A stretch of 64,000 nucleotides of DNA from Armatimonadota bacterium. GTDB lineage: Bacteria > Armatimonadota > UBA5829 > DTLH01. Numbering within the stretch: the first letter of the stretch is position 1; every line of letters starts with the position of its first letter. The DNA is taken from contig JBBRAE010000005.1 in NCBI GenBank assembly GCA_038207085.1, forward strand, positions 20,181-84,180. The letters run 5' to 3'. A model generated the notes under the pieces. That model was not told the origin of the DNA, did no database searches, and worked only from the letters and a program-made list of their open reading frames with translations. Below, one piece after another: positions 2,879 to 51,439 of the stretch. Both the position numbers and the translations under genes were made by a program.

Positions 2879-2997
2879 AGTGATGTGTTTCGACTCCTCT
2901 CTGGATAAAGAGATCAGATTTTGAGTTACAAGCAACTCGCGGCTCAAAGTTCGCACCGTTGCTTGCGGGAAAGGACATCGCAAAATCCGCTATGTCC

Positions 2998-3771
2998 TTA
3001 AGAGCGGAACAGCGCCACATCCCTCTGCAAATAACCCCGCAGACGGAGCACCGCCTGAGTGTGTAGCTGATACACCCTCGATTCGGACACCTCAAGGATT
3101 TTTCCGATTTCCTTAAAGGTAAGTCCTTCATAATAGTACAACGTAAGTACCAGGTTTTCCCTGGGCGGCAGACGGTCTATAGCTTGTCCAAGCGACAGTT
3201 TCATCGCCTTGACCTCGACCTCCCCCAGGGTGTTCGAGTTTTCGTCGCGGATTACGTCGGCGAGCTGGATCTTTTCGTTGCCCTCGCTTGAAAGCACAAT
3301 GTCATCAAGCGAAAGCAGCGAGGCGCGCCCCGTATCTGCAAGCACGGAATGGAACGAGTCTATGTCCATCCCAAGCGTCTGCGCGACTTCTTCATCCTCC
3401 GCCGGCCTGCCAAGTCGGCTCTCAAGGGACATATAGGCCCTCTCAAGCGCCTTGACACGCTCGCGAACAGACCGGGGAACCCAGTCCTCTTCACGGAGCA
3501 TTTCAAGAATCGCTCCCCGGATAAGGGCGATGGCGTAGGTCTCAAACTTGACCTGCCTGGACATATCGAACTGGTCGATAGCCTTGATGAGCCCTATCAC
3601 GCCAGCGCCGATCAGGTCTTCCCTGTCGACGTTGGGCGGAAGGCTCGTCACCACCCTGCCCGCGGTTATCTTAACGAGGTAGGAGTACTGCGTAATGAGC
3701 GCATCCCTAGCCTTCTGGTCACCCCAGACCTTATACCTGGACCATGCTTCTGCGAGTTCGGTTGCTTGCAT
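2998..3771 (-). CDS. RNA polymerase sigma factor, sigma-70 group 3 (FliA/WhiG/SigB family)
   Basis: Regions 2/3/4 are recognisable: region 2.x at the N-terminus, region 3, and a C-terminal region 4 HTH (LTLYYYEGLTFKEIGKILEVSESRVYQLHTQAVLRLR). 257 aa. Confidence 0.8.
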   Translation of the reverse strand: MQATELAEAWSRYKVWGDQKARDALITQYSYLVKITAGRVVTSLPPNVDREDLIGAGVIGLIKAIDQFDMSRQVKFETYAIALIRGAILEMLREEDWVPRSVRERVKALERAYMSLESRLGRPAEDEEVAQTLGMDIDSFHSVLADTGRASLLSLDDIVLSSEGNEKIQLADVIRDENSNTLGEVEVKAMKLSLGQAIDRLPPRENLVLTLYYYEGLTFKEIGKILEVSESRVYQLHTQAVLRLRGYLQRDVALFRS

Positions 3772-5258: not shown

Positions 5259-5318
5259 CAGTGGCGCTTGCGCCGCAATAGACCATTAAGAGACAGCGCG
5301 GATAGCGCCGTCGACTTG
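5259..5318 (+). repeat. Family-A REP-like palindromic repeat, copy 1 (immediately after the pit stop)
   Basis: gtggcgcttgcgcc ... agagacagcgcggatagcgccgtcga matches the copies at 9169-9262 and 31019-31082. Confidence 0.6.
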
Positions 5319-6019: not shown

Positions 6020-6195
6020 GGCACTGCACGTAGGGGCGGACCAGTGTGCCCGCCCTCCCCCGGCGACGGTGAATATGTCACCGATAGCCCCCAAAGCCGG
6101 CAATGGTCCGCAGTCGGATTGAGATAACCCACTGGTGACATATTGATCTCAGCGATCAAGGGCGCACACATTGGTGCGCCCCTACGTAGTTGGCC
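6020..6195. repeat. About 175-bp element with nested inverted repeats (possible degenerate REPIN/MITE or structured RNA)
   Basis: Outer arms: GGCACTGCACGTAGGGGCGGACCAGTGTGCCCGCCC (6020-6055) pairs with the reverse complement of GGGCGCACACATTGGTGCGCCCCTACGTAGTTGGCC (6159-6195). Inner arms: GAATATGTCACC (6070-6082) pairs with GGTGACATATTG (6133-6145). Confidence 0.5.
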
Positions 6196-9168: not shown

Positions 9169-9262
9169 CTGGTGGCGCATAGCGCCAGCCCTTTCGCAGC
9201 CTTTGGCTGCGAAAGGGCTTTGAGAGACGGCGCGGATAGCGCCGTCGATACCGAACACGCTA
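9169..9262 (+). repeat. Family-A REP-like palindromic repeat, copy 2 (with an extra inserted hairpin)
   Basis: ggtggcgcatagcgccagcc + CCCTTTCGCAGCCtttGGCTGCGAAAGGG + tttgagagacggcgcggatagcgccgtcgataccgaacacgc. Palindromic units GGCGC-ATA-GCGCC and GGCGC-GGATA-GCGCC. Confidence 0.65.
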
Positions 9263-14208: not shown

Positions 14209-14300
14209 TCAATCGCTCCTTAAAAATACTGTCGAGCAATTATAACACGAATGGGGGGTGGTTTTGGAGAGTAGTGGGCGTAACGAACAAGATGACTATT

Positions 14301-14441
14301 ACGTTCGTCCGGGGAATCCGTCCCCCGATGCCGTTTCAGGGGAATCTTTCCCCCAGCTTAGTTATCGGGCATAGTCGATCATTGGGTTGGCGGACAGAAT
14401 CCGCGGAACAGGGTCGGGGGACGTATTCCCCCGACCAACAG
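14301..14441 (+). repeat. Family-B MITE-like repeat (about 140 bp), copy 1, with internal tandem duplication
   Basis: acgttcgtccggggaatccgtcccccg...ggttggcggacagaatccgcggaacagggtcgggggacgtattcccccgaccaacagg. The reverse-complement copy is at 39113-39226. Copy 1 has an extra gatgccgtttcaggggaatctttccccc. Confidence 0.7.
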
Positions 14442-14500
14442 GACTTCGATCAAGGTCAAAGCTCGCTTGCTTGGCCGCGCCGAAAATGATACCATCTGGT

Positions 14501-29832: not shown

Positions 29833-29975
29833 GCACCTATCGTTCGTCCGGATTTGCAATCCGGGACGATCTGGCAGAATAGTCATCTGTGATGCCGGTA
29901 GATTGGGCACATCCGAAATACCGGGATCACAGATCCCTTGCTTGCCAACAGGCCCCGGATTTCAAATCCGGGCCT
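29833..29975 (+). repeat. Family-C MITE-like repeat (about 145 bp), copy 1, with hairpin termini
   Basis: gcacctatcgttcgtCCGGATTTGCAATCCGGgacg......ggCCCGGATTTCAAATCCGGGcc. Reverse-complement copy at 46993-47149. Confidence 0.7.
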
Positions 29976-30320
29976 ACATAGGGCGTGTATTGATTCTTTG
30001 GGTGGAACGCACGTTTCGAGAGCCTCAACGTGATTGTTTTGGATTGATCTATATTTGATAGATTGGTGGTCGCGGCGGTACAACCTCTCACACCTCCACC
30101 CAACCCAACCCCTCACCCTGAGGCTCTCGAAGGGTGCGATGCACAAATTTCCCGACGTACTACAACAAAGGGAAGCTTATTAAATCCCCCAACCCTCGCC
30201 ACTCCCACCTCTTCACTACCCTCCCCATCCAATTCTGCACAATTTCAGGGCAAAACCCTTGACAGGGGGCAGGCTTGCGTGCAATCATGCGTTACCTAGC
30301 CGACGGCGGGCAAACAAAAA

Positions 30321-39095: not shown

Positions 39096-39112
39096 AGGCT
39101 GTCAGCTAACTG

Positions 39113-39226
39113 CTCCGTTGGTCGGGGGAATCCGTCCCCCGACCCCGTTCCGCGGACTCTATCCGCCAACCCAGTAATCGACGATCGCCGATAAGTGAGC
39201 TGGGGACAGATTCCCCGGACGAACAT
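39113..39226 (-). repeat. Family-B MITE-like repeat, copy 2 (inverted relative to copy 1), located between galT and the radical-SAM gene
   Basis: The reverse complement matches 14301-14441 minus the internal duplication. Confidence 0.7.
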
Positions 39227-39240
39227 GCCTTGCTAACAGC

Positions 39241-40462: not shown

Positions 40463-40920
40463 TACGAACGCCTGTAGATCCAGGGCTAACGCATCTTGAC
40501 CGGCAACCAACGTAGTGCCCGTCCCGCCGCCGCGGCCTCTCGCATCACTTTCGATGATGCTGTCGGTGAGACCATCGGCGCGGAACGTGCCGAGCAAACG
40601 ATAGAATTTCATAAAGTTTTCCATTTGGCACAGCACCTTTGATACTGATGGCCTATCGCATTCCCTATCGGGAACGCTGTCGGCGAGGCGGGCGCGGCGA
40701 CCCGCCACTACGGGCGTTCGGCGCTGCCCGACAGCTAAGATACGTTCGCCCTGGTCTGTGGATAACATAGCTCTGCTATAAGTGGGGGATGTTGGGTATA
40801 ATGAATGTAACTTAGTGATAGCCGGCACAGATCGCAACGCTCGTCGAGAAAGAGGCTATTGTGCCTGAGTCCTTGCGTCTGATATCATTGTAGTTGAGGG
40901 GATCAGTTAGGAGGAAATGC

Positions 40921-44638: not shown

Positions 44639-46579
44639 TTGTTCGCTGGCACTGTCCAGAACTGGATGGAGATCGTGGACATTTCCAATCCCGCCACACC
44701 CGTAAGAATAAGAATTGACCCGCGAACACTGAAGTCCGGAATACGTGGACTATCATCCTACGGGTCCTTCCTCGGCGTCTTAGGAAATGACGATAACCTC
44801 TATCTATTTGACGCGGGGCTTATCGACGAGCAACCCGCGATGTGGTATCGTGAAGCGGTATACAGCATTCCGGCTCGCACTGGTAGCCCTCAATTTAGCA
44901 GTCCATTGCCCTCATTCACGCTGACGTCTGCCGGAGCGTGCATTGGCGTCGCCGTCCCACAACTGACCCCTTACGGCGACCCAAGCCAAGCCGCCCAAGG
45001 GCTGCATACGATCAGCATACCCAACGTCGATGCGAAGCTCAAGATCGGCGAAGCAATACTTGGGGCAGCCATCACAGATGTCGAAGCCAGCGGACAGCAG
45101 GTATTTGCGATCGGCCTCGGTGGAATTCTGGTTTCACTGGACACCTCCGACCCGACACAGCCCAGGTTGCAGGGCATCACAATTACCGCCGACAACAATA
45201 TCCAGTTCCTGCGCGACCAATACCTGACACTCGGGAACAGCTGGGGATGGGAGACTTACGACGTTTCGCTCCCTGCAAAGCCCACAAAAGTCGGCGCAAA
45301 CACCTCTATAAAGGGACCCAAGTCAACCATCTGTGGGAGCTTTGCCTACGCGATCGACGGCTCATCAGCGATGCAGGTCGTCAGCATCTCAGATCCTGCG
45401 CCTATGAAGGTCGTCGCCGCGGTGAACCTGAATGGGCGGATCGATGGCATCACATCGTCAGATCACTATATTTATGTAGGCCTTTCCGGCGTGGCTGGCA
45501 CGTCTGGTGGGGTACTCGCAGTGCTCAACGCAACCGATCCACTGAATCCAGTCAAGGTCGGCGAGATCACTTGGGCAAATAACAACTACGTGTACGAACT
45601 TCGCACCCAGGGGCAGTATCTATACGCGAAGATGAGCAACTCACTCAATATAGTCGACGTGTCAGTCCCAACAAGCCCCAAAGTCGTAGGAAGTCTGGTC
45701 ATTAATCTGCCCGGAGATTATCGACCAGTCGGCGATCGCCTCTACTTCACAACTGGCGCGAGCGTCGGTGTCGTAGATATCTCAGACCCCACCAACCCAC
45801 GGCTTGTTCAGACAATCCCAATGCCGATGCGCCCGGAAGACCGCGTGCCCATATTGCCTATGAGCGTATCCGGCGAGAATGTATTTGTCGCTGCAGGCAC
45901 ATCGGGCGTGTTCATATTCGGTCCGACACCCACGCCTGAGCTCGCCTACACCGGCCAACTCTTCGTAAGCGTCGGCGGGATAGACCTCTCGGCAACTCCT
46001 GTGGGCAAGAGCCCAACCCCGAACCTCGACCTCAAGTTCAAAGCGCAGGGCGTCTCGGGAGGGCTCTACCTCACCAACACAGTCGTGACAAACGTGATTG
46101 GATGCGCCTCCGTCAGGGCTGTCTGGCCCGCAGGCGTCTACGAGGTGAGCGTCACCGATGCAGGCGGCAGGCCCTACTCCAAACCCACCGCCGTAGCGAT
46201 CTACAACCCCTCCAAGAAGGGCGACGCAGTTGCCGGAACGATTGTCGCAGGCGCGGGGCGGCAGGTCTCCCTCGGCATGCTCTGTGAGGCCGGTCCAGCA
46301 CCCGGCTCGATGCTCCTGGTCGATCCAAACTCCGGGGCCAGAGTCGTCTCAAGCAGCCTGCGGAGGACGAAGTTCGTCGAGCAGAACGCGGTGTACTCCG
46401 GCATCTGCAGCTTCCAGGCAGGTAGCGGCCGAAGTGTGTCCGCCTGCGTCGAGCTTATAGTCGGCTCTAAAGGAAACAACTCAGCGGCGAGCGTCCGGGT
46501 CAAGAGGTCACAGGCGAGCCAGGACGCGCTCTACGAGGCCTCAGGCCCTTTGAAAAACGGCGGGATCAGACTGCAGTAG
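44639..46579 (+). CDS. LVIVD-repeat beta-propeller surface protein, C-terminal segment (same frame as 43082..44563; the repeats continue; Ig-like C-terminus)
   Basis: (44639-42965) is divisible by 3. The codons between the TGA and 44639 continue the repeat (KPSAPVQVGGYPCNTLTSFEIKGNTLFAGTVQNWMEIVDISNPATP). No signal peptide or RBS for an independent start. Confidence 0.7.
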   Translation: MFAGTVQNWMEIVDISNPATPVRIRIDPRTLKSGIRGLSSYGSFLGVLGNDDNLYLFDAGLIDEQPAMWYREAVYSIPARTGSPQFSSPLPSFTLTSAGACIGVAVPQLTPYGDPSQAAQGLHTISIPNVDAKLKIGEAILGAAITDVEASGQQVFAIGLGGILVSLDTSDPTQPRLQGITITADNNIQFLRDQYLTLGNSWGWETYDVSLPAKPTKVGANTSIKGPKSTICGSFAYAIDGSSAMQVVSISDPAPMKVVAAVNLNGRIDGITSSDHYIYVGLSGVAGTSGGVLAVLNATDPLNPVKVGEITWANNNYVYELRTQGQYLYAKMSNSLNIVDVSVPTSPKVVGSLVINLPGDYRPVGDRLYFTTGASVGVVDISDPTNPRLVQTIPMPMRPEDRVPILPMSVSGENVFVAAGTSGVFIFGPTPTPELAYTGQLFVSVGGIDLSATPVGKSPTPNLDLKFKAQGVSGGLYLTNTVVTNVIGCASVRAVWPAGVYEVSVTDAGGRPYSKPTAVAIYNPSKKGDAVAGTIVAGAGRQVSLGMLCEAGPAPGSMLLVDPNSGARVVSSSLRRTKFVEQNAVYSGICSFQAGSGRSVSACVELIVGSKGNNSAASVRVKRSQASQDALYEASGPLKNGGIRLQ

Positions 46580-46636
46580 AAAGAGACACGTTGCCCGCTC
46601 TCTTGGGGGCGGGCAACGTTGACAAACCATCACGTT

Positions 46637-46987
46637 CTATCCCTGATCCGTTTGATGAACCAGTAGTACAAGCCTGGAAAAAGCACCCAGCCGAGCAAGC
46701 GCAGCCTTGCTCGAGTTGTAGACCGGAGCGTACGCCGAGGGCAGGAACCCGACGAGGCTTGATTCGTTGATCACCGTCCCCCACCCCTGCCGCTCCATCA
46801 CCCCGAGCGCGAGCTTCACCCCCTCGGCCGTCGCAAAGAAATTGAGGTCAAAATACGCACGGACGTCCTCCATAGAGGTCTCGCTAAACGGCCCAACAAA
46901 CCCCGCGCCCGCATCGTTCACAAACACGTCGGTCGGCACGACAAGCGCCTTGGCCCCAAGCTTCTCAATCTCGTCCTTAAGCTCATT
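46637..46987 (-). pseudogene. Short-chain dehydrogenase/reductase (SDR) C-terminal fragment; the N-terminal Rossmann half is missing at the family-C repeat boundary
   Basis: Manual extension of the track ORF reads *NELKDEIEKLGAKALVVPTDVFVNDAGAG...YNSSKAAL (SDR motifs NNAG and YxxxK). A TAG stop at 46988-46990 is followed immediately by the repeat at 46993. No TGxxxGxG region is found beyond it. Confidence 0.6.
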
Positions 46988-46992
46988 CTACG

Positions 46993-47149
46993 TTGGCCCG
47001 GATTTGAAATCCGGGGCCTGTTGGCAAACAAGGGATCTGTGATCCCGTTCTTTCGACCGTGCCCAATCAACCGGCATAACAGATGCCTATTCGGCACAGA
47101 CGTCCCGGATTGCAAATCCGGACGAACGATAGGTGCAAATCCGGACGAA
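46993..47149 (-). repeat. Family-C MITE-like repeat, copy 2 (inverted; terminal 17-nt partial duplication)
   Basis: The reverse complement matches 29833-29975. tgcaaatccggacgaac is duplicated at the end. Confidence 0.7.
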
Positions 47150-47285
47150 CAAGATGGAAATCTATCTCTCGACAAGAGGCACTGCCTATCGACCTCCACT
47201 CACCTCTTAATTTTGACTTTTGCACTTTGCATTTTTCATTTTGCATTTCCCCCTCACTCTGGCACGCAAATTGCATTATAAATAG

Positions 47286-48842
47286 ATGAAAGAGTCGTTC
47301 ATCATCATGACGTTACCGCTCTACCGAATCATACTGGCCGCCATATCGATTTTATTCGCAGCAGGGGTCCCTTGCGGCGCTGTGCGCTATTACGTCGACG
47401 CGGGCTCGACTGCTGTCGTGCGCGACGGATCGTCCTGGGCAAAGGCGTTCAAGAAGATTGGTGACGCCGTCGCGGTCGCAAAGTTCGGCTCAGAGATCTG
47501 GGTCAAGGCCGGGGTCTATCAGGAGCCGCCGCTTGTTCTGAACTCCTATTTGTGGCTCTACGGCGGATTTATCGGCTTTGAGACCAAACAAGAGTACCGT
47601 ATCCCGGGCGCGTTCCCGAGCATAATCGATGTAGACCGCCAGGGCAGCGTCATCACCGTCGCAAGAGATAAGCGCTGCACCATCGACGGCTTTACGATTC
47701 GAAACGGTTTCGCAATGTATGGAGGCGGGCTGAACTGCCAGACCAACTCCGTTGTCAACATGCGAAACTGCCGAATCGAAGGCTGTGAGGCGACTTACGC
47801 CGGAGGCGGAGCGTACTTTGGCACCTATGCGCCGATGGACTTTATCGGCGGACTGACCGACTGCGTGGTCATCGGCAACACCTCAGCGCAGGGCGGCGGG
47901 GTGGTGATCGAGTATCACTGCGCGGCGGTCTTGACGCGCTGTCTAATCATCCGAAACCACGCGACATCAAACGGCGGCGGGGTCTACTGTCCGTTTCACT
48001 GCGATGGCCGGATGTACTACTGCACCGTCGCTTACAACTCGGCCGGTGAGACGTCCGGCGGCGCTTACGTGCACTACGGTGGCAACGTCGCTTTCACGAA
48101 CAGTATCTTTGCCTTCAACTCTGCGCCCACTTCAGGCGGGCTCGGTGGAGGCGGCGGGACCAACTCGCTGCAGTACAGCTACTGCAACCTTTTTGGCAAT
48201 CAGGGCGGCGACTGGGGTGGAAACATCCTTGACCCGTCGAGGTTTCTCGGAAACTACTCGGCGGACCCGAGGTTCATCGCCCCGGAGCGCGATGAGTTTC
48301 ATCTATGGTCAAATTCACCCTGCACAAGCGCGGGGTGCTTCGCAGTTGAGAGCCCTTACCGGATCGAGCGCATCGGAGTCGCAAAGAGCCTGCCCACAGG
48401 CACGAGTGTGCGGCTTCGGGGCAAGATCGTCTCCGGTGTGCGTGATGGAATCACCTACATTCAGGAGCACGACCGGGCGGCGGCGATCGCTGTCACAGGG
48501 CTTTCGGGTTACACATCGGGTCAGGTGCTTCGGGACATCACCGGCGTGATCAGCGGCGACGTACGAACCCTTGCCGCAGGCACGACGACAACCCAGGCGG
48601 GGTTCAGCTACCCGTTCAAACCGCTTGGGACGAATGTGTCGTCCATCGCGACGCTCACGGGCATGATGTCGCGGACCTGGGGCCGAGTCACAGGCCTTAC
48701 CGTGGAGGGATTTGTGATAAATGACGGGCGCACAGAGCTTCAGGTGATAGCAAGCGGCGCGTCGGTCGGCGATTTTGTTGTGGTAACGGGCGTGTATGCG
48801 CTCGATGGAAAGTTTGCGGCTGTTTCAGTCGTAAGAAAGTGA
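47286..48842 (+). CDS. Secreted right-handed parallel beta-helix protein with Pmp-like GGA / FxxN repeats
   Basis: Signal/TM MTLPLYRIILAAISILFAAGVPCGA. Repeats ..GGGAYF.., ..NGGGVYC.., ..GGAYVHYGGNVAFTNSIFAFNSA.. resemble polymorphic-membrane-protein / PbH1 repeats. Confidence 0.65.
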   Translation: MKESFIIMTLPLYRIILAAISILFAAGVPCGAVRYYVDAGSTAVVRDGSSWAKAFKKIGDAVAVAKFGSEIWVKAGVYQEPPLVLNSYLWLYGGFIGFETKQEYRIPGAFPSIIDVDRQGSVITVARDKRCTIDGFTIRNGFAMYGGGLNCQTNSVVNMRNCRIEGCEATYAGGGAYFGTYAPMDFIGGLTDCVVIGNTSAQGGGVVIEYHCAAVLTRCLIIRNHATSNGGGVYCPFHCDGRMYYCTVAYNSAGETSGGAYVHYGGNVAFTNSIFAFNSAPTSGGLGGGGGTNSLQYSYCNLFGNQGGDWGGNILDPSRFLGNYSADPRFIAPERDEFHLWSNSPCTSAGCFAVESPYRIERIGVAKSLPTGTSVRLRGKIVSGVRDGITYIQEHDRAAAIAVTGLSGYTSGQVLRDITGVISGDVRTLAAGTTTTQAGFSYPFKPLGTNVSSIATLTGMMSRTWGRVTGLTVEGFVINDGRTELQVIASGASVGDFVVVTGVYALDGKFAAVSVVRK

Positions 48843-50614: not shown

Positions 50615-50642
50615 ACCATTTATTCGTTGCTCAGTTCACCGA

Positions 50643-51439
50643 CAAACTCACGTAGTGGCCGGTCGCCGTGCCGGCCATCAGCACCAAAGGCGCTGCGCCA
50701 ACTGTGTAATCTCATATACATGATCATTTGTACGACGCGTCTCGCGTCGATGGCCAGCCAGCGACCGGCCACTACATCAACTGCACCTATAACGGCAGAA
50801 TATCGGGCATACCGGAGTACGGCCACAAATCCGCAGTCTCCGCCAATCCTCCCCTTATCGGATTCTCCAGAATGTACTGGCAAATTGCAATTGTATCCTC
50901 ATCCCTACGCGCTATGTGATCGTACCAACTCCGCTGCCACAACTGACCTTCACCTTCGTGCTTTCGATAGATCATAGTCGTAAAGCTCTTGAATTGGCCA
51001 ATGACACTACCTACAGACGCTTGTTCCTCTGTGGGCGACAGCGCCAGATGCAAGTGATCAGGCATCAGACAATACGCATACAGCCGAATGATCCCCTTGT
51101 CACGCCTCCACAACAGAGCATCAACAACATCGCGAGCCAGCAAGGGATCTTCAAAAACCCGCTGTTTGTCGGTCGTGCACATGGTTGCAAAATAGACCAT
51201 GTTAGGGTCAGAATAGCTAACATCCTCAAGTCGCATCCGTTTGCGAAGATAGCATCGCTCTCGAGTTTCGCTCATACACAATCCCCAACAAACGCCATAT
51301 CGCCACAAACTCACGTAGTGGCCGGTCGCCGTGCCGGCCATCAGCGCCAAAGGCGCTGCGCCAACTGTGTAATCTCATATACGTGATCATTTGTACGACG
51401 CGTCCCGCGTCGATGGCCGGCCAGCGACCGGCCACTACA
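50643..51439 (-). mobile_element. REP-associated tyrosine transposase (RAYT) gene flanked by two near-identical REPIN copies (50643-50775 and 51306-51439)
   Basis: The two 130-bp flanks differ at about 4 positions. Each flank is an inverted doublet: GTAGTGGCCGGTCGCCGTGCCGGCCATC ... GATGGCC(A/G)GCCAGCGACCGGCCACTAC. Confidence 0.75.
50787..51275 (-). CDS. REP-associated tyrosine transposase (IS200/IS605-like HuH Y1 transposase, RAYT class)
   Basis: Start at MSETRERCYLRKR (ATG 51273-51275). HuH motif LYAYCLMPDHLHLAL. Downstream ..QRSWYDHI.. tyrosine region. Track ORFs over the flanks (50430..50723, 50620..50883, 51226..51489) are repeat read-throughs. Confidence 0.75.
   Translation of the reverse strand: MSETRERCYLRKRMRLEDVSYSDPNMVYFATMCTTDKQRVFEDPLLARDVVDALLWRRDKGIIRLYAYCLMPDHLHLALSPTEEQASVGSVIGQFKSFTTMIYRKHEGEGQLWQRSWYDHIARRDEDTIAICQYILENPIRGGLAETADLWPYSGMPDILPL

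What the first reader, a model, noticed from the sequence alone, without database searches (positions are those of the whole stretch)
46637..47149. Family-C MITE-like repeat abutting a truncated SDR pseudogene
The about 145-bp element has palindromic termini (CCGGATTTGCAATCCGG / CCGGATTTCAAATCCGG) at both ends. It occurs at 29833-29975 (between a glycoside-hydrolase gene and yggS) and, inverted, at 46993-47149. At 46993 it sits 2 nt beyond a TAG that terminates an SDR reading frame (minus strand 46637-46987: ...KLGAKALVVPTDVFVNDAGAG...YNSSKAAL). The Rossmann TGxxxGxG half of the SDR is nowhere upstream, which is consistent with gene disruption by the element or by a rearrangement mediated by it. 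A 17-nt terminal duplication (tgcaaatccggacgaac x2) is present.
Basis: seen in the sequence. Interest (0 to 1): 0.5.

Follow-up and report, generated by a model that had tools for sequence, protein, structure and literature searches.

The report
REP-doublet repeat beside SDR gene relic
A 146-149-base palindromic repeat that occurs twice in the window is most likely a REPIN-like pair of inverted hairpin units, the kind moved by tyrosine transposases (one such gene lies 4 kb away), and it sits at the broken 5' end of a badly decayed dehydrogenase pseudogene, which is an ordinary feature of a repeat-rich bacterial chromosome.

Summary
Two inverted copies (29833-29981 and 46988-47136; 149 nt, 89% identical) carry the quoted palindromic termini, and copy B has the 17-nt duplication. 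The short-chain dehydrogenase (SDR) frame stops at a TAG that is the first three bases of the element.

The "MITE" label can be made more precise. Each end is a REP-like unit: a 4-nt tag (GTAG, GTTG or GTTC) followed by a hairpin, with the tags facing outward. The ends are conserved and the spacer is diverged. There is no target-site duplication. The window also encodes a bona fide REP-associated tyrosine transposase (RAYT, 50787-51275) flanked by two 135-nt doublets of the same architecture but a different hairpin. Two further doublet families lie in the window. I read family C as a REPIN-type element. Its mobilising enzyme is not shown.

The SDR is a relic. Against a 275-aa homologue it keeps residues 45-185, with a 22-codon in-frame deletion, a smaller gap and an in-frame stop. 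No other SDR piece exists in the window. The 5' break coincides with the element, and the 3' end of homology coincides with another tagged hairpin. Disruption by the element is plausible but unproven.

This is a new member of a known kind and of low to moderate interest.

The parts
46988..47136 (+). Family C copy B, the element of the finding: two REP-like units with tags outward and a spacer of about 83 nt
   Evidence: Inverted repeat I1, alignment, ssDNA fold -35.4 kcal/mol with z -5.7
46992..47018 (+). Left REP-like unit of copy B: tag GTTG followed by hairpin GCCCGGATTTGAAATCCGGGGCC
   Evidence: Sequence. The tag sits 8 nt before the GGATT core, as in the metagenome relatives
47102..47127 (-). 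Right REP-like unit of copy B, read on the minus strand: tag GTTC followed by hairpin GTCCGGATTTGCAATCCGGGAC
   Evidence: Sequence
47134..47150 (.). Half-REP remnant (3' half of the hairpin plus the tag), a 17-nt duplicate of 47111-47127 with a 23-nt period
   Evidence: Sequence. The same 'full REP plus half REP' pattern occurs in the unrelated locus L064
29833..29981 (-). Family C copy A, between the GH42-like gene and yggS. Its right unit read on the minus strand is GTAG + GCCCGGATTTGAAATCCGGGGCC (29951-29977). Its left unit is GTTC + GTCCGGATTTGCAATCCGGGAC (29842-29867, plus strand)
   Evidence: RNA fold z -8.2 and -7.3 on the two strands. ssDNA fold z -7.2
46610..46987 (-). SDR pseudogene relic. 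It corresponds to residues 45-185 of the 275-aa homologue P0244, with a 22-codon in-frame deletion (junction near 46925-46930), a 6-residue gap and an in-frame TAG at 46637-46639. The annotated 100-aa ORF is 46637-46939
   Evidence: Pfam adh_short profile positions 74-159 of 195, PDB alignments, tblastn with P0244 E=2e-30, protein alignment
46588..46619 (.). Stem-loop ACGTTGCCCGC...GCGGGCAACGT (14 predicted pairs) with GTTG tags on both strands, located where SDR homology ends and 9 nt after the stop of the convergent LVIVD gene. It may be a REP-like singlet or a terminator
   Evidence: ssDNA fold -15.9 kcal/mol with z -5.1, tagged-hairpin census
50787..51275 (-). RAYT gene (REP-associated tyrosine transposase, 162 aa from the ATG; HUH motif HLH and the tyrosine in YILENP)
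   Evidence: Pfam Y1_Tnp 4e-9. NCBIfam NF047646 103 bits against a cutoff of 80. Homologues are named RayT / REP-associated tyrosine transposase
50642..50776 (+). Family D1 REP doublet downstream of the RAYT gene: GTAGTGGCCGGTCGCCGTGCCGGCCATC ... GATGGCCAGCCAGCGACCGGCCACTAC
   Evidence: Direct repeat D1, 97% identical, sequence, fold z -7.0
51305..51439 (+). Family D1 REP doublet upstream of the RAYT gene
14290..14442 (.). Family X copy 1, a REP doublet: GTTC-GTCCGGGGAATCCGTCCCCCGA ... inverted GTTG-GTCGGGGGAATACGTCCCCCGAC. It shares both terminal motifs with family C
39104..39228 (.). Family X copy 2, inverted relative to copy 1 and carrying an internal deletion
6030..6185 (.). Family E REP doublet with GTAG tags outward: GTAGGGGCGGACCAGTGTGCCCGCCC ... 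inverted GTAGGGGCGCACCAATGTGTGCGCCC
   Evidence: A similar GTAGGGGCGGAC REP flanks a RAYT homologue in L137

Best explanation
Family C is a REPIN-type element: a doublet of REP-like stem-loops in inverted orientation with their 4-nt tags facing outward.

Such elements are non-autonomous. A Y1/HUH tyrosine transposase of the RAYT type recognises the tagged hairpins on single-stranded DNA and cuts and rejoins them, leaving no target-site duplication. That mechanism is taken from the REP/RAYT literature and is not shown here.

The genome, probably an Armatimonadota MAG, carries a RAYT and at least four families of such doublets in this window. Which enzyme moves family C is not established.

Copy B lies at the 5' breakpoint of an SDR gene that has since decayed to a relic of about 375 nt through several deletions. 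The likeliest history is insertion of the doublet into, or next to, a dispensable SDR gene. Hairpin-associated or ordinary deletions then removed codons 1-44 and later 22 internal codons and the 3' third. This history is inferred.
For: Shown:
- The two copies are 149 nt and 89% identical, and both are intergenic.
- Each end is a tag plus a hairpin with the tags outward: GTAG or GTTG + GCCCGGATTTGAAATCCGGGGCC, and GTTC + GTCCGGATTTGCAATCCGGGAC.
- The ends are conserved (2 differences in 76 nt) and the spacer is diverged (15 in 73 nt). Five pairs are broken and only one is compensated.
- The element folds strongly on both strands.
- The bases flanking the two copies show no direct repeat.
- A RAYT gene passing NCBIfam's equivalog cutoff lies at 50787-51275. 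It is flanked by two 135-nt doublets of identical architecture.
- Its orthologues in other Armatimonadota are flanked by GTAG-tagged REPs whose hairpins differ from genome to genome, including heterodimers and tandem arrays.
- Two more doublet families (X and E) lie in the window. Tagged hairpins number 47 against 28.3 in shuffles.
- Families X and C share both terminal motifs. CGTTCGTCCGG with up to one mismatch occurs 9 times against 2.45 expected.
- Units with the same geometry, a GTTG or GTTC tag 8 nt before GGATTTG(C/A)AATCC, recur in independent metagenome contigs (17 of 169 strand-views against about 1.3 expected). Some form four-hairpin elements with the same two ends.
- SDR relic anatomy.

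From the literature: REP doublets with tags outward and 20-100-bp spacers, heterodimers and REPtrons (PMC3733652); REPINs have conserved ends and a less conserved spacer (PMC3116915).
Against: - Only one of the four family C units carries the canonical GTAG tag. The others are GTTG or GTTC.
- The only RAYT visible is flanked by a different REP (GTAGTGGCCGG...), and that REP is the one conserved with its orthologues. No link between family C and a transposase is demonstrated.
- Only two copies are visible, so over-representation in the genome is not shown.
- No RAYT was found on the metagenome contigs that carry the related hairpins.
- The spacer of about 83 nt between the two units lies within the 20-100 bp reported for REP dimers, but the doublet is longer than P. 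fluorescens GI REPINs, whose end 16-mers start 71 bp apart.
- Absence of a target-site duplication rests on two copies, one of which has a rearranged flank.
Confidence: 0.6

Rival explanations
1. It is a classical MITE: a deletion derivative of a DDE-transposase insertion sequence, moved through its terminal inverted repeats and leaving target-site duplications.
For: It has inverted termini of about 30 nt, is about 146 nt long, has no coding capacity and is dispersed in intergenic DNA.
Against: There is no target-site duplication at either copy. No IS or DDE transposase was found among the roughly 45 ORFs scanned in the window. Each terminus is itself a tagged palindrome of REP type. The window's only transposase is a RAYT flanked by elements of the same architecture.
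Confidence: 0.15
2. It is a structured RNA element (terminator, mRNA stabiliser or small RNA) kept for its fold and not a mobile element.
For: The fold is very stable (z -8.2). REPs are often transcribed and can act as RNA elements (PMC3733652). Copy A lies downstream of a gene.
Against: Both strands fold equally well. The two copies are oriented differently relative to their neighbours. Differences between copies break five pairs and compensate one. There is no T-run terminator signature at the terminal hairpins of either copy. No Rfam match reaches a gathering score, and the only sub-threshold hits are E>=0.66.
Confidence: 0.08
3. It is a two-copy segmental leftover, for example the trace of an old inversion or duplication between 29.8 kb and 47 kb, with no mobility of its own.
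For: Only two copies are seen. They are inverted and 17 kb apart.
Against: Homology stops sharply at the tagged hairpins on both sides. The same unit geometry recurs in unrelated metagenome contigs. Three other families of identical architecture lie in the same window. No SDR half lies next to copy A, as an inversion between the copies would predict.
Confidence: 0.07
4. It is a tRNA-derived element, because its terminal hairpins are identical to tRNA anticodon arms.
For: 64 of 120 metagenome matches to the 18-mer core are anticodon arms of tRNA-Cys(GCA) genes.
Against: ARAGORN finds no tRNA in the window, and the Rfam tRNA model does not match even at E<=10. Similarity is confined to 17-18 nt of a near-palindrome. 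As ssDNA the core folds mainly as a GGATT/AATCC stem closing a 3-nt loop in copy A, whereas the 7-nt anticodon loop is not predicted.
Confidence: 0.02
5. The 100-aa SDR-like ORF (46637-46939) is a functional small protein and not a pseudogene.
For: An open frame of 100 codons with a GTG start exists and was called as a gene in public annotation.
Against: It lacks the TGxxxGxG nucleotide-binding motif, 22 residues between beta-3 and beta-4, and everything after YxxxK+10. It is a singleton cluster. Its best full-length relatives are 270-320-aa SDRs, and the other top hits are partial or multi-domain proteins.
Confidence: 0.03

Closest known systems
REPINs (REP doublets forming hairpins) of Pseudomonas fluorescens SBW25 and their RAYTs (Bertels & Rainey 2011, PMC3116915)
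   Same: Two REP units lie in inverted orientation. The ends are highly conserved and the spacer less so. The whole element folds as a hairpin. It is extragenic and non-coding. A RAYT gene flanked by such elements lies in the same chromosome region.
   Different: The doublet is longer: about 83 nt separate the two units, whereas the two end 16-mers of a P. fluorescens GI REPIN start 71 bp apart. Tags are GTTG or GTTC, with GTAG once. No compensatory changes are seen between the two copies. Abundance is unknown. The neighbouring RAYT is flanked by a different REP family.
GTAG-tagged REP 'head-head' dimers and REPtrons (Di Nocera, De Gregorio & Rocco 2013, PMC3733652)
   Same: A palindromic unit carries an unpaired 4-nt tag at one end. 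Dimers have their tags outward and spacers of 20-100 bp with complementary ends. Heterodimers have different loops or stems. Several REP families occur per genome. Some families lack a dedicated transposase.
   Different: The tag fits neither the GTAG nor the CGTC consensus in three of four units. The apical GGATT-N3-AATCC core is not among the families I could check in that paper's text. The host is probably Armatimonadota, a name that does not occur in that paper's main text.
E. coli REP/BIME elements and TnpA-REP (RayT); structure of REP bound to its nuclease (PMC3479197)
   Same: The unit of copy A begins GTAGGCCCGGAT.... By my recollection this resembles the E. coli REP start GTAGGCCGGAT.... 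The E. coli sequence is recalled, not tested here. The proposed mechanism is also the same: HUH/Y1 cleavage of tagged ssDNA hairpins.
   Different: The hairpin body, the length and the organisation differ, with no IHF-type BIME mosaic. No biochemical evidence exists here.
Bacterial MITEs such as Correia elements, RUP and ERIC
   Same: Size of 100-160 nt, inverted termini, intergenic dispersal, a long hairpin fold and occasional gene disruption.
   Different: Those elements have target-site duplications (for example TA for Correia) and termini related to DDE-type IS elements. Neither feature is seen here.

Membership tests
REPIN / REP doublet | Two REP units in inverted orientation that together with the spacer can form one hairpin | tested here: met
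   Units at 46992-47018 (+) and 47102-47127 (-), likewise in copy A. Long-hairpin MFE with z -8.2 to -4.9
REPIN / REP doublet | Each unit is a short imperfect palindrome with a conserved unpaired tetranucleotide tag (GTAG) at one end | tested here: inconclusive
   The palindrome is present in all four units. The tag is GTAG in one unit (copy A) and GTTG or GTTC in the other three. GTTG/GTTC at the same offset recurs in metagenome relatives
REPIN / REP doublet | Ends more conserved than the spacer | tested here: met
   2 differences in 76 end positions against 15 in 73 spacer positions. This rests on two copies only and the boundary was chosen after seeing the data
REPIN / REP doublet | Extragenic location | tested here: met
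   Copy A lies between the GH42-like gene and yggS. Copy B lies between the SDR relic and the beta-helix gene
REPIN / REP doublet | Over-represented, present in many copies in the genome | not testable with these tools
   Two copies in 64 kb. The rest of the 156,880-bp contig and the genome could not be fetched
REPIN / REP doublet | The same REP flanks a RAYT gene in the genome (REPtron) | tested here: not met
   The one RAYT in the window is flanked by family D1 (GTAGTGGCCGG...) and not by family C. Other RAYTs of the genome cannot be examined
REPIN / REP doublet | No target-site duplication (Y1/HUH transposition) | tested here: met
   The flanks of the two copies share no direct repeat. Weak, because n=2 and one flank of copy B is rearranged
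MITE of a DDE-type insertion sequence | Terminal inverted repeats | tested here: met
   The termini are inverted copies of each other, visibly similar over about 30 nt (similarity not quantified)
MITE of a DDE-type insertion sequence | Target-site duplication flanking each copy | tested here: not met
   None at either copy
MITE of a DDE-type insertion sequence | Parent IS with matching termini in the genome | tested here: inconclusive
   No DDE transposase was found among the roughly 45 ORFs scanned in the window. The rest of the genome is unavailable
RAYT (for the gene at 50787-51275) | Y1 transposase fold with HUH motif and catalytic tyrosine, scoring above the RAYT equivalog threshold | tested here: met
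   NF047646 103.2 bits against a cutoff of 80. IS200 model only 20.7 bits against a cutoff of 55. HLH and YILENP motifs are present in the sequence
RAYT (for the gene at 50787-51275) | Gene flanked by REP sequences | tested here: met
   135-nt GTAG-tagged doublets lie 10 nt downstream and 29 nt upstream. Orthologues in L130, L131, L134 and L137 are likewise flanked
Classical SDR (for the frame 46610-46987) | N-terminal TGxxxGxG nucleotide-binding motif | tested here: not met
   Absent. The alignment starts at residue 45 of P0244, and there is no motif or tblastn hit anywhere in the window
Classical SDR (for the frame 46610-46987) | NNAG motif and catalytic Ser...YxxxK | tested here: met
   VNDAG, NESS and YNSSK are present and aligned
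Classical SDR (for the frame 46610-46987) | Full domain of about 250 residues | tested here: not met
   Covers Pfam profile positions 74-159 of 195. It has a 22-residue internal gap and the C-terminal third is missing

The most novel reading that the evidence does not exclude
The units of family C belong to an undescribed, widely distributed REP class. It is defined by a GTTG/GTTC tag (unlike the known GTAG and CGTC tags) placed 8 nt before an invariant GGATT-N3-AATCC hairpin top. The class occurs as two- to four-hairpin elements in unrelated metagenome contigs of differing base composition; their taxa were not determined. It either lacks a dedicated transposase or is cross-mobilised by RAYTs whose own flanking REPs look different. 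That would mean one RAYT can maintain several structurally distinct REPIN populations in one genome.
Probability: 0.2. Interest if true: 0.5.

Novelty: new member of a known kind. Interest (0 to 1): 0.3.

Why it matters
On its own this is routine annotation: one more REP/REPIN-type repeat family and one dead gene.

It has modest value in three respects.
- It adds a REPIN-RAYT system with several coexisting doublet families in a probable member of Armatimonadota, a phylum not named in the REP survey I read.
- Two of the families share their end motifs but not their hairpins. Orthologous RAYTs are flanked by quite different GTAG-tagged hairpins. This bears on what a RAYT actually recognises.
- The SDR relic is bounded on both sides by tagged hairpins. 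That is a small example of such elements marking the end points of gene decay.

For annotation, the 100-aa ORF should be flagged as a pseudogene fragment.

Tried and rejected
- Known RNA family: no Rfam match reaches a gathering score, and the only sub-threshold hits are E>=0.66.
- tRNA-derived element: ARAGORN finds none. The many metagenome matches to the hairpin core turned out to be tRNA-Cys anticodon arms, which are noise here.
- More copies elsewhere:
  - The exact 20-mer in GTDB representative genomes gave five unrelated hairpins.
  - The two-terminus pattern in JGI metagenomes gave none.
  - Two viral-contig scans gave none.
  - A low-stringency search of the window found no third copy.
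- Extending beyond the window through Logan contigs gave only about 470 extra bases. The Logan contig carrying the SDR relic breaks inside the element's terminal hairpin, but the two known copies suffice to explain that break.
- Synteny test for an intact SDR: relatives of the adjacent beta-helix gene at 43-47% identity, and the contig of the best SDR homologue, have unrelated neighbours.
- Inversion between copies A and B as the source of the missing SDR half: there is no SDR remnant next to copy A.
- RAYT genes next to the related metagenome hairpins: phmmer finds none on those mostly short contigs.
- A weak antisense SDR-like match at 46471-46605 (E=0.17) overlaps the part of the domain already present in the relic and lies inside the LVIVD gene. 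I treated it as chance.
- A head-tag count by strict perfect-stem extension failed, because the stems have basal mismatches. It was replaced by a fixed-offset count.

Full report
**1. The observation**

The window holds two inverted copies of one element, at 29833-29981 and 46988-47136. They are 149 nt long and 89% complementary, with 17 differences and no gaps. The degenerate 17-mer CCGGATTTSMAATCCGG gives 8 strand-matches against 0.12 expected from shuffles. No third copy exists in the window at low stringency.

The 17-nt duplication in copy B is real: 47111-47127 and 47134-47150, with a 23-nt period. Copy A lies between a GH42-like gene and a YggS-like gene. On the minus strand next to copy B there is an SDR-like frame (Pfam adh_short, E=2e-17, profile positions 74-159 of 195).

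One correction is needed. Homology between the copies includes the bases CTA at 46988-46990. The minus-strand TAG that closes the SDR frame is therefore the element's own end, and SDR-homologous codons begin at the very next base, 46987.

**2. Anatomy of the element**

Read from the end that touches the SDR relic, copy B has these parts in order:
- CTAC
- tag GTTG
- hairpin GCCCGGATTTGAAATCCGGGGCC
- a spacer of about 83 nt
- hairpin GTCCCGGATTGCAAATCCGGAC
- GAAC, the reverse complement of GTTC
- GATAGGTGC

Each end is thus a 4-nt tag followed by a hairpin, and the two tags face outward. In copy A the first tag is GTAG.

The element folds very stably on both strands (z -8.2 and -7.3 for copy A, -4.9 for copy B). 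As ssDNA it folds either as one long hairpin or as separate terminal hairpins plus a central one.

The differences between the copies are concentrated in the spacer. Fifteen of the 17 lie in positions 37-109, and only 2 lie in the 76 end positions. Of the 53 pairs in copy A's structure, copy B breaks five and compensates one. The ends are therefore conserved, and the interior shows no sign of selection for structure.

The bases flanking the two copies share no direct repeat, so there is no target-site duplication. No Rfam match reaches a gathering score and the only sub-threshold hits are E>=0.66. ARAGORN finds no tRNA. Neither copy has a T-run terminator signature at its terminal hairpins.

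**3. Context that changes the reading**

A Pfam scan of about 45 ORFs shows an ordinary chromosomal region: aromatic amino-acid synthesis, relA, recJ, secDF and glycosidases. It contains no DDE transposase.

It does contain a Y1 transposase gene at 50787-51275(-). That gene scores 103 bits on NCBIfam's REP-associated tyrosine transposase equivalog (cutoff 80) and only 21 bits on the IS200 model. It is flanked, 10 nt downstream and 29 nt upstream, by two 135-nt direct copies that are 97% identical. Each copy is itself a doublet: GTAGTGGCCGGTCGCCGTGCCGGCCATC ... GATGGCCrGCCAGCGACCGGCCACTAC, with GTAG tags outward.

The closest relatives of this protein are annotated as Armatimonadota and Chloroflexota transposases or RayT. 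Their genes are flanked by GTAG-tagged REPs:
- L130 carries the same GTAGTGGCCG... unit.
- L131 carries it as 38-nt tandem arrays.
- L134 has a 1.2-kb array of 100-nt heterodimers.
- L137 has a GTAGGGGCGGAC... unit.

The window has two more doublet families with tags outward. Family X lies at 14290-14442 and 39104-39228. Family E lies at 6030-6185, and its unit resembles the REP of L137. Overall the window has an excess of tagged hairpins, 47 against 28.3 in shuffles.

Families C and X share both end motifs (5' CGTTGG......CCGGACGAAC 3') although their hairpins differ. CGTTCGTCCGG with up to one mismatch occurs 9 times against 2.45 expected.

**4. Relatives elsewhere**

The full element was not found in GTDB representative genomes, JGI metagenomes or viral contigs.

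The 18-nt hairpin core is common in metagenomes, but 64 of the 120 loci returned are tRNA-Cys anticodon arms. That explains the tRNA-like look of the hairpin and is otherwise noise.

Among the non-tRNA hairpins, a GTTG or GTTC tag sits exactly 8 nt before the GGATT core in 17 of 169 strand-views. About 1.3 would be expected from the 4-mer frequency. This is the same geometry as in family C.

Several contigs (L057, L066, L085, L090) carry four-hairpin elements of 125-150 nt. Their left end (GTTmGyCCGGATTTGCAATCCGGG) and right end (...AACG) align with family C. L112 has three such units in a 40-nt tandem array. L064 shows a full unit followed by a half unit plus tag, as in copy B. No RAYT ORF is present on those mostly short contigs.

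**5. The SDR relic**

The 116-aa translation finds only itself in the 90%-identity cluster collection. In the exhaustive search its best full-length relatives are 270-320-aa SDRs, and the other top hits are partial or multi-domain proteins.

The best full-length homologue is P0244 (275 aa; 53% identical in the alignment, 56% by the search). It shares the stretch EKLGAKALVVPTDV exactly. Against it the relic starts at residue 45 and lacks residues 65-86. This is an in-frame 22-codon deletion between two DV dipeptides, so that ...PTDV is joined directly to FVNDAG. The relic keeps NNAG, Ser and YxxxK and then degenerates. It has a 6-residue gap and an in-frame TAG at 46637-46639, and homology fades near residue 185 at about 46610.

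Independent support comes from the first 21 residues. They match only three PDB sequences, all reductases of the SDR type, at residues 43-73 and with weak E-values of 0.12-1.1. The rest of the relic matches SDR residues of about 79-164.

No N-terminal, middle or C-terminal SDR piece exists anywhere else in the window.

The point where homology ends coincides with a stem-loop of 14 predicted pairs, ACGTTGCCCGC...GCGGGCAACGT, at 46588-46619. It carries GTTG tags on both strands. It could be a REP-like singlet, or simply the terminator shared with the convergent LVIVD gene.

**6. Interpretation**

The anatomy matches what the literature calls REP 'head-head' dimers or REPINs (PMC3733652; PMC3116915). 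The matching features are:
- tagged palindromic units in inverted orientation with the tags outward
- a spacer within the reported 20-100 bp
- conserved ends and a looser spacer
- heterodimeric units
- several families per genome, with RAYT genes flanked by them

I therefore read family C as a REPIN-type non-autonomous element. Mobilisation by a Y1/HUH transposase acting on ssDNA hairpins is inferred from those systems and is not shown here.

The weak points are these:
- Three of the four tags are GTTG or GTTC, not GTAG.
- The visible RAYT is cognate to family D1 and not to family C.
- Only two copies can be seen.

A DDE-type MITE, a structured RNA, a non-mobile segmental leftover and a tRNA-derived element are each less well supported (see the rival explanations).

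For the SDR, the 5' break lies exactly at the element boundary. Insertion followed by an adjacent deletion, or a deletion ending at the hairpin, is therefore plausible. The gene also has at least three further lesions, so the element need not have been the inactivating event. No syntenic relative was available to order the events.

**7. Verdict**

The feature is a new member of a known kind: a REP-doublet (REPIN-like) family in a probable Armatimonadota genome, lying beside a decayed SDR pseudogene. Interest is low to moderate.

The most novel reading still open is that the GTTS-tagged GGATT-N3-AATCC units form a widespread, undescribed REP class without a dedicated transposase, or one cross-mobilised by RAYTs.

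Noticed in passing
window 50642-51439: A complete REPtron. A RAYT gene (50787-51275, minus strand; NCBIfam REP_Tyr_transpos 103 bits) is flanked by two direct 135-nt GTAG-tagged REP doublets that are 97% identical. It sits between a TPR gene and dtd/relA/recJ/secDF.
   Followed up: yes
window 14290-14442 and 39104-39228: A second doublet family (X), with units GTTC-GTCCGGGGAATCCGTCCCCCGA and GTTG-GTCGGGGGAATACGTCCCCCGAC. It shares both terminal motifs with family C but not the hairpins. Copy 2 has an internal deletion that fuses two similar hairpins.
   Followed up: partly
window 6030-6185: A third doublet (E) with GTAG tags outward (GTAGGGGCGGACCAGTGTGCCCGCCC and GTAGGGGCGCACCAATGTGTGCGCCC). 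A similar GTAGGGGCGGAC REP flanks a 59%-identical RAYT in L137 (about 2935-3005 and 3520-3550).
   Followed up: partly
window 40687-40711: A single D1-type REP unit (GTAGTGGCGGGTCGCCGCGCCCGCC, minus strand) in the intergenic region upstream of the aldo/keto reductase gene.
   Followed up: no
window 46588-46619: A stem-loop of 14 predicted pairs with GTTG tags on both strands. It lies exactly where SDR homology ends and 9 nt after the LVIVD gene stop. The SDR relic is therefore bracketed by tagged hairpins on both sides.
   Followed up: partly
window 47145-47156 and 14283-14294: The 12-mer ACGAACAAGATG occurs right of copy B of family C and left of copy 1 of family X, in both cases just outside a REP-like unit. 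This is unexplained.
   Followed up: no
L007-L126 (metagenome loci): The 18-mer hairpin core is identical to the anticodon stem-loop of tRNA-Cys(GCA): 64 of 120 matches are tRNA-Cys genes. Searches with this motif are dominated by tRNAs.
   Followed up: yes
L057 300-465, L066 4846-4995, L085 3322-3455, L090 6440-6575, L112 190-320: These are intergenic clusters or tandem arrays of hairpins with an invariant GGATT-N3-AATCC top, variable basal stems and GTTG/GTTC tags. They occur in unrelated metagenome contigs, one of them from human gut. No transposase is present on the fetched stretches.
   Followed up: partly
L064 about 413-470: A full REP-like unit is followed by its 3' half plus tag (GCAAATCCGGCCCAAC AG TTCAAATCCGGCCCAAC). 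This is the same kind of half-unit duplication as at 47102-47150 in the window.
   Followed up: no
L131 3391-3507, 6875-7006 and 7425-7826: A relative that encodes a 58%-identical RAYT (phylum not stated by the tools) has two copies of a palindromic element of about 115-130 nt with perfect 50-52-nt arms. A 133-aa SDR-domain gene, possibly another truncated SDR, lies about 400 nt from one of them.
   Followed up: no
L134 1783-2990: A 1.2-kb tandem array of REP heterodimers of about 100 nt (GTAGTGTCCGATCTCCGTCTCGGACAG ... CTGGCTGGGACAGAGACCAGCCACTAC) lies directly upstream of a RAYT gene in an Armatimonadota genome.
   Followed up: no
window 47200-47285: An AT-rich tract with repeated TTTGCA motifs (ttttgacttttgcactttgcatttttcattttgcatttcc) lies upstream of the beta-helix gene at 47286. 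The simple scan found no sigma-70 consensus there.
   Followed up: no
window 5267-5314 and 9201-9248: A 48-nt direct repeat (79% identical) ends in the hairpin GACGGCGCGGATAGCGCCGTC. It may be another small repeat family.
   Followed up: no
window 46471-46605 (minus strand): There is a weak SDR-like match (SASWLACDLLTRTLAAELFP against SASKAAVAGLTRSLAKELAP, E=0.17), antisense to the 3' end of the LVIVD gene. It is probably chance.
   Followed up: partly
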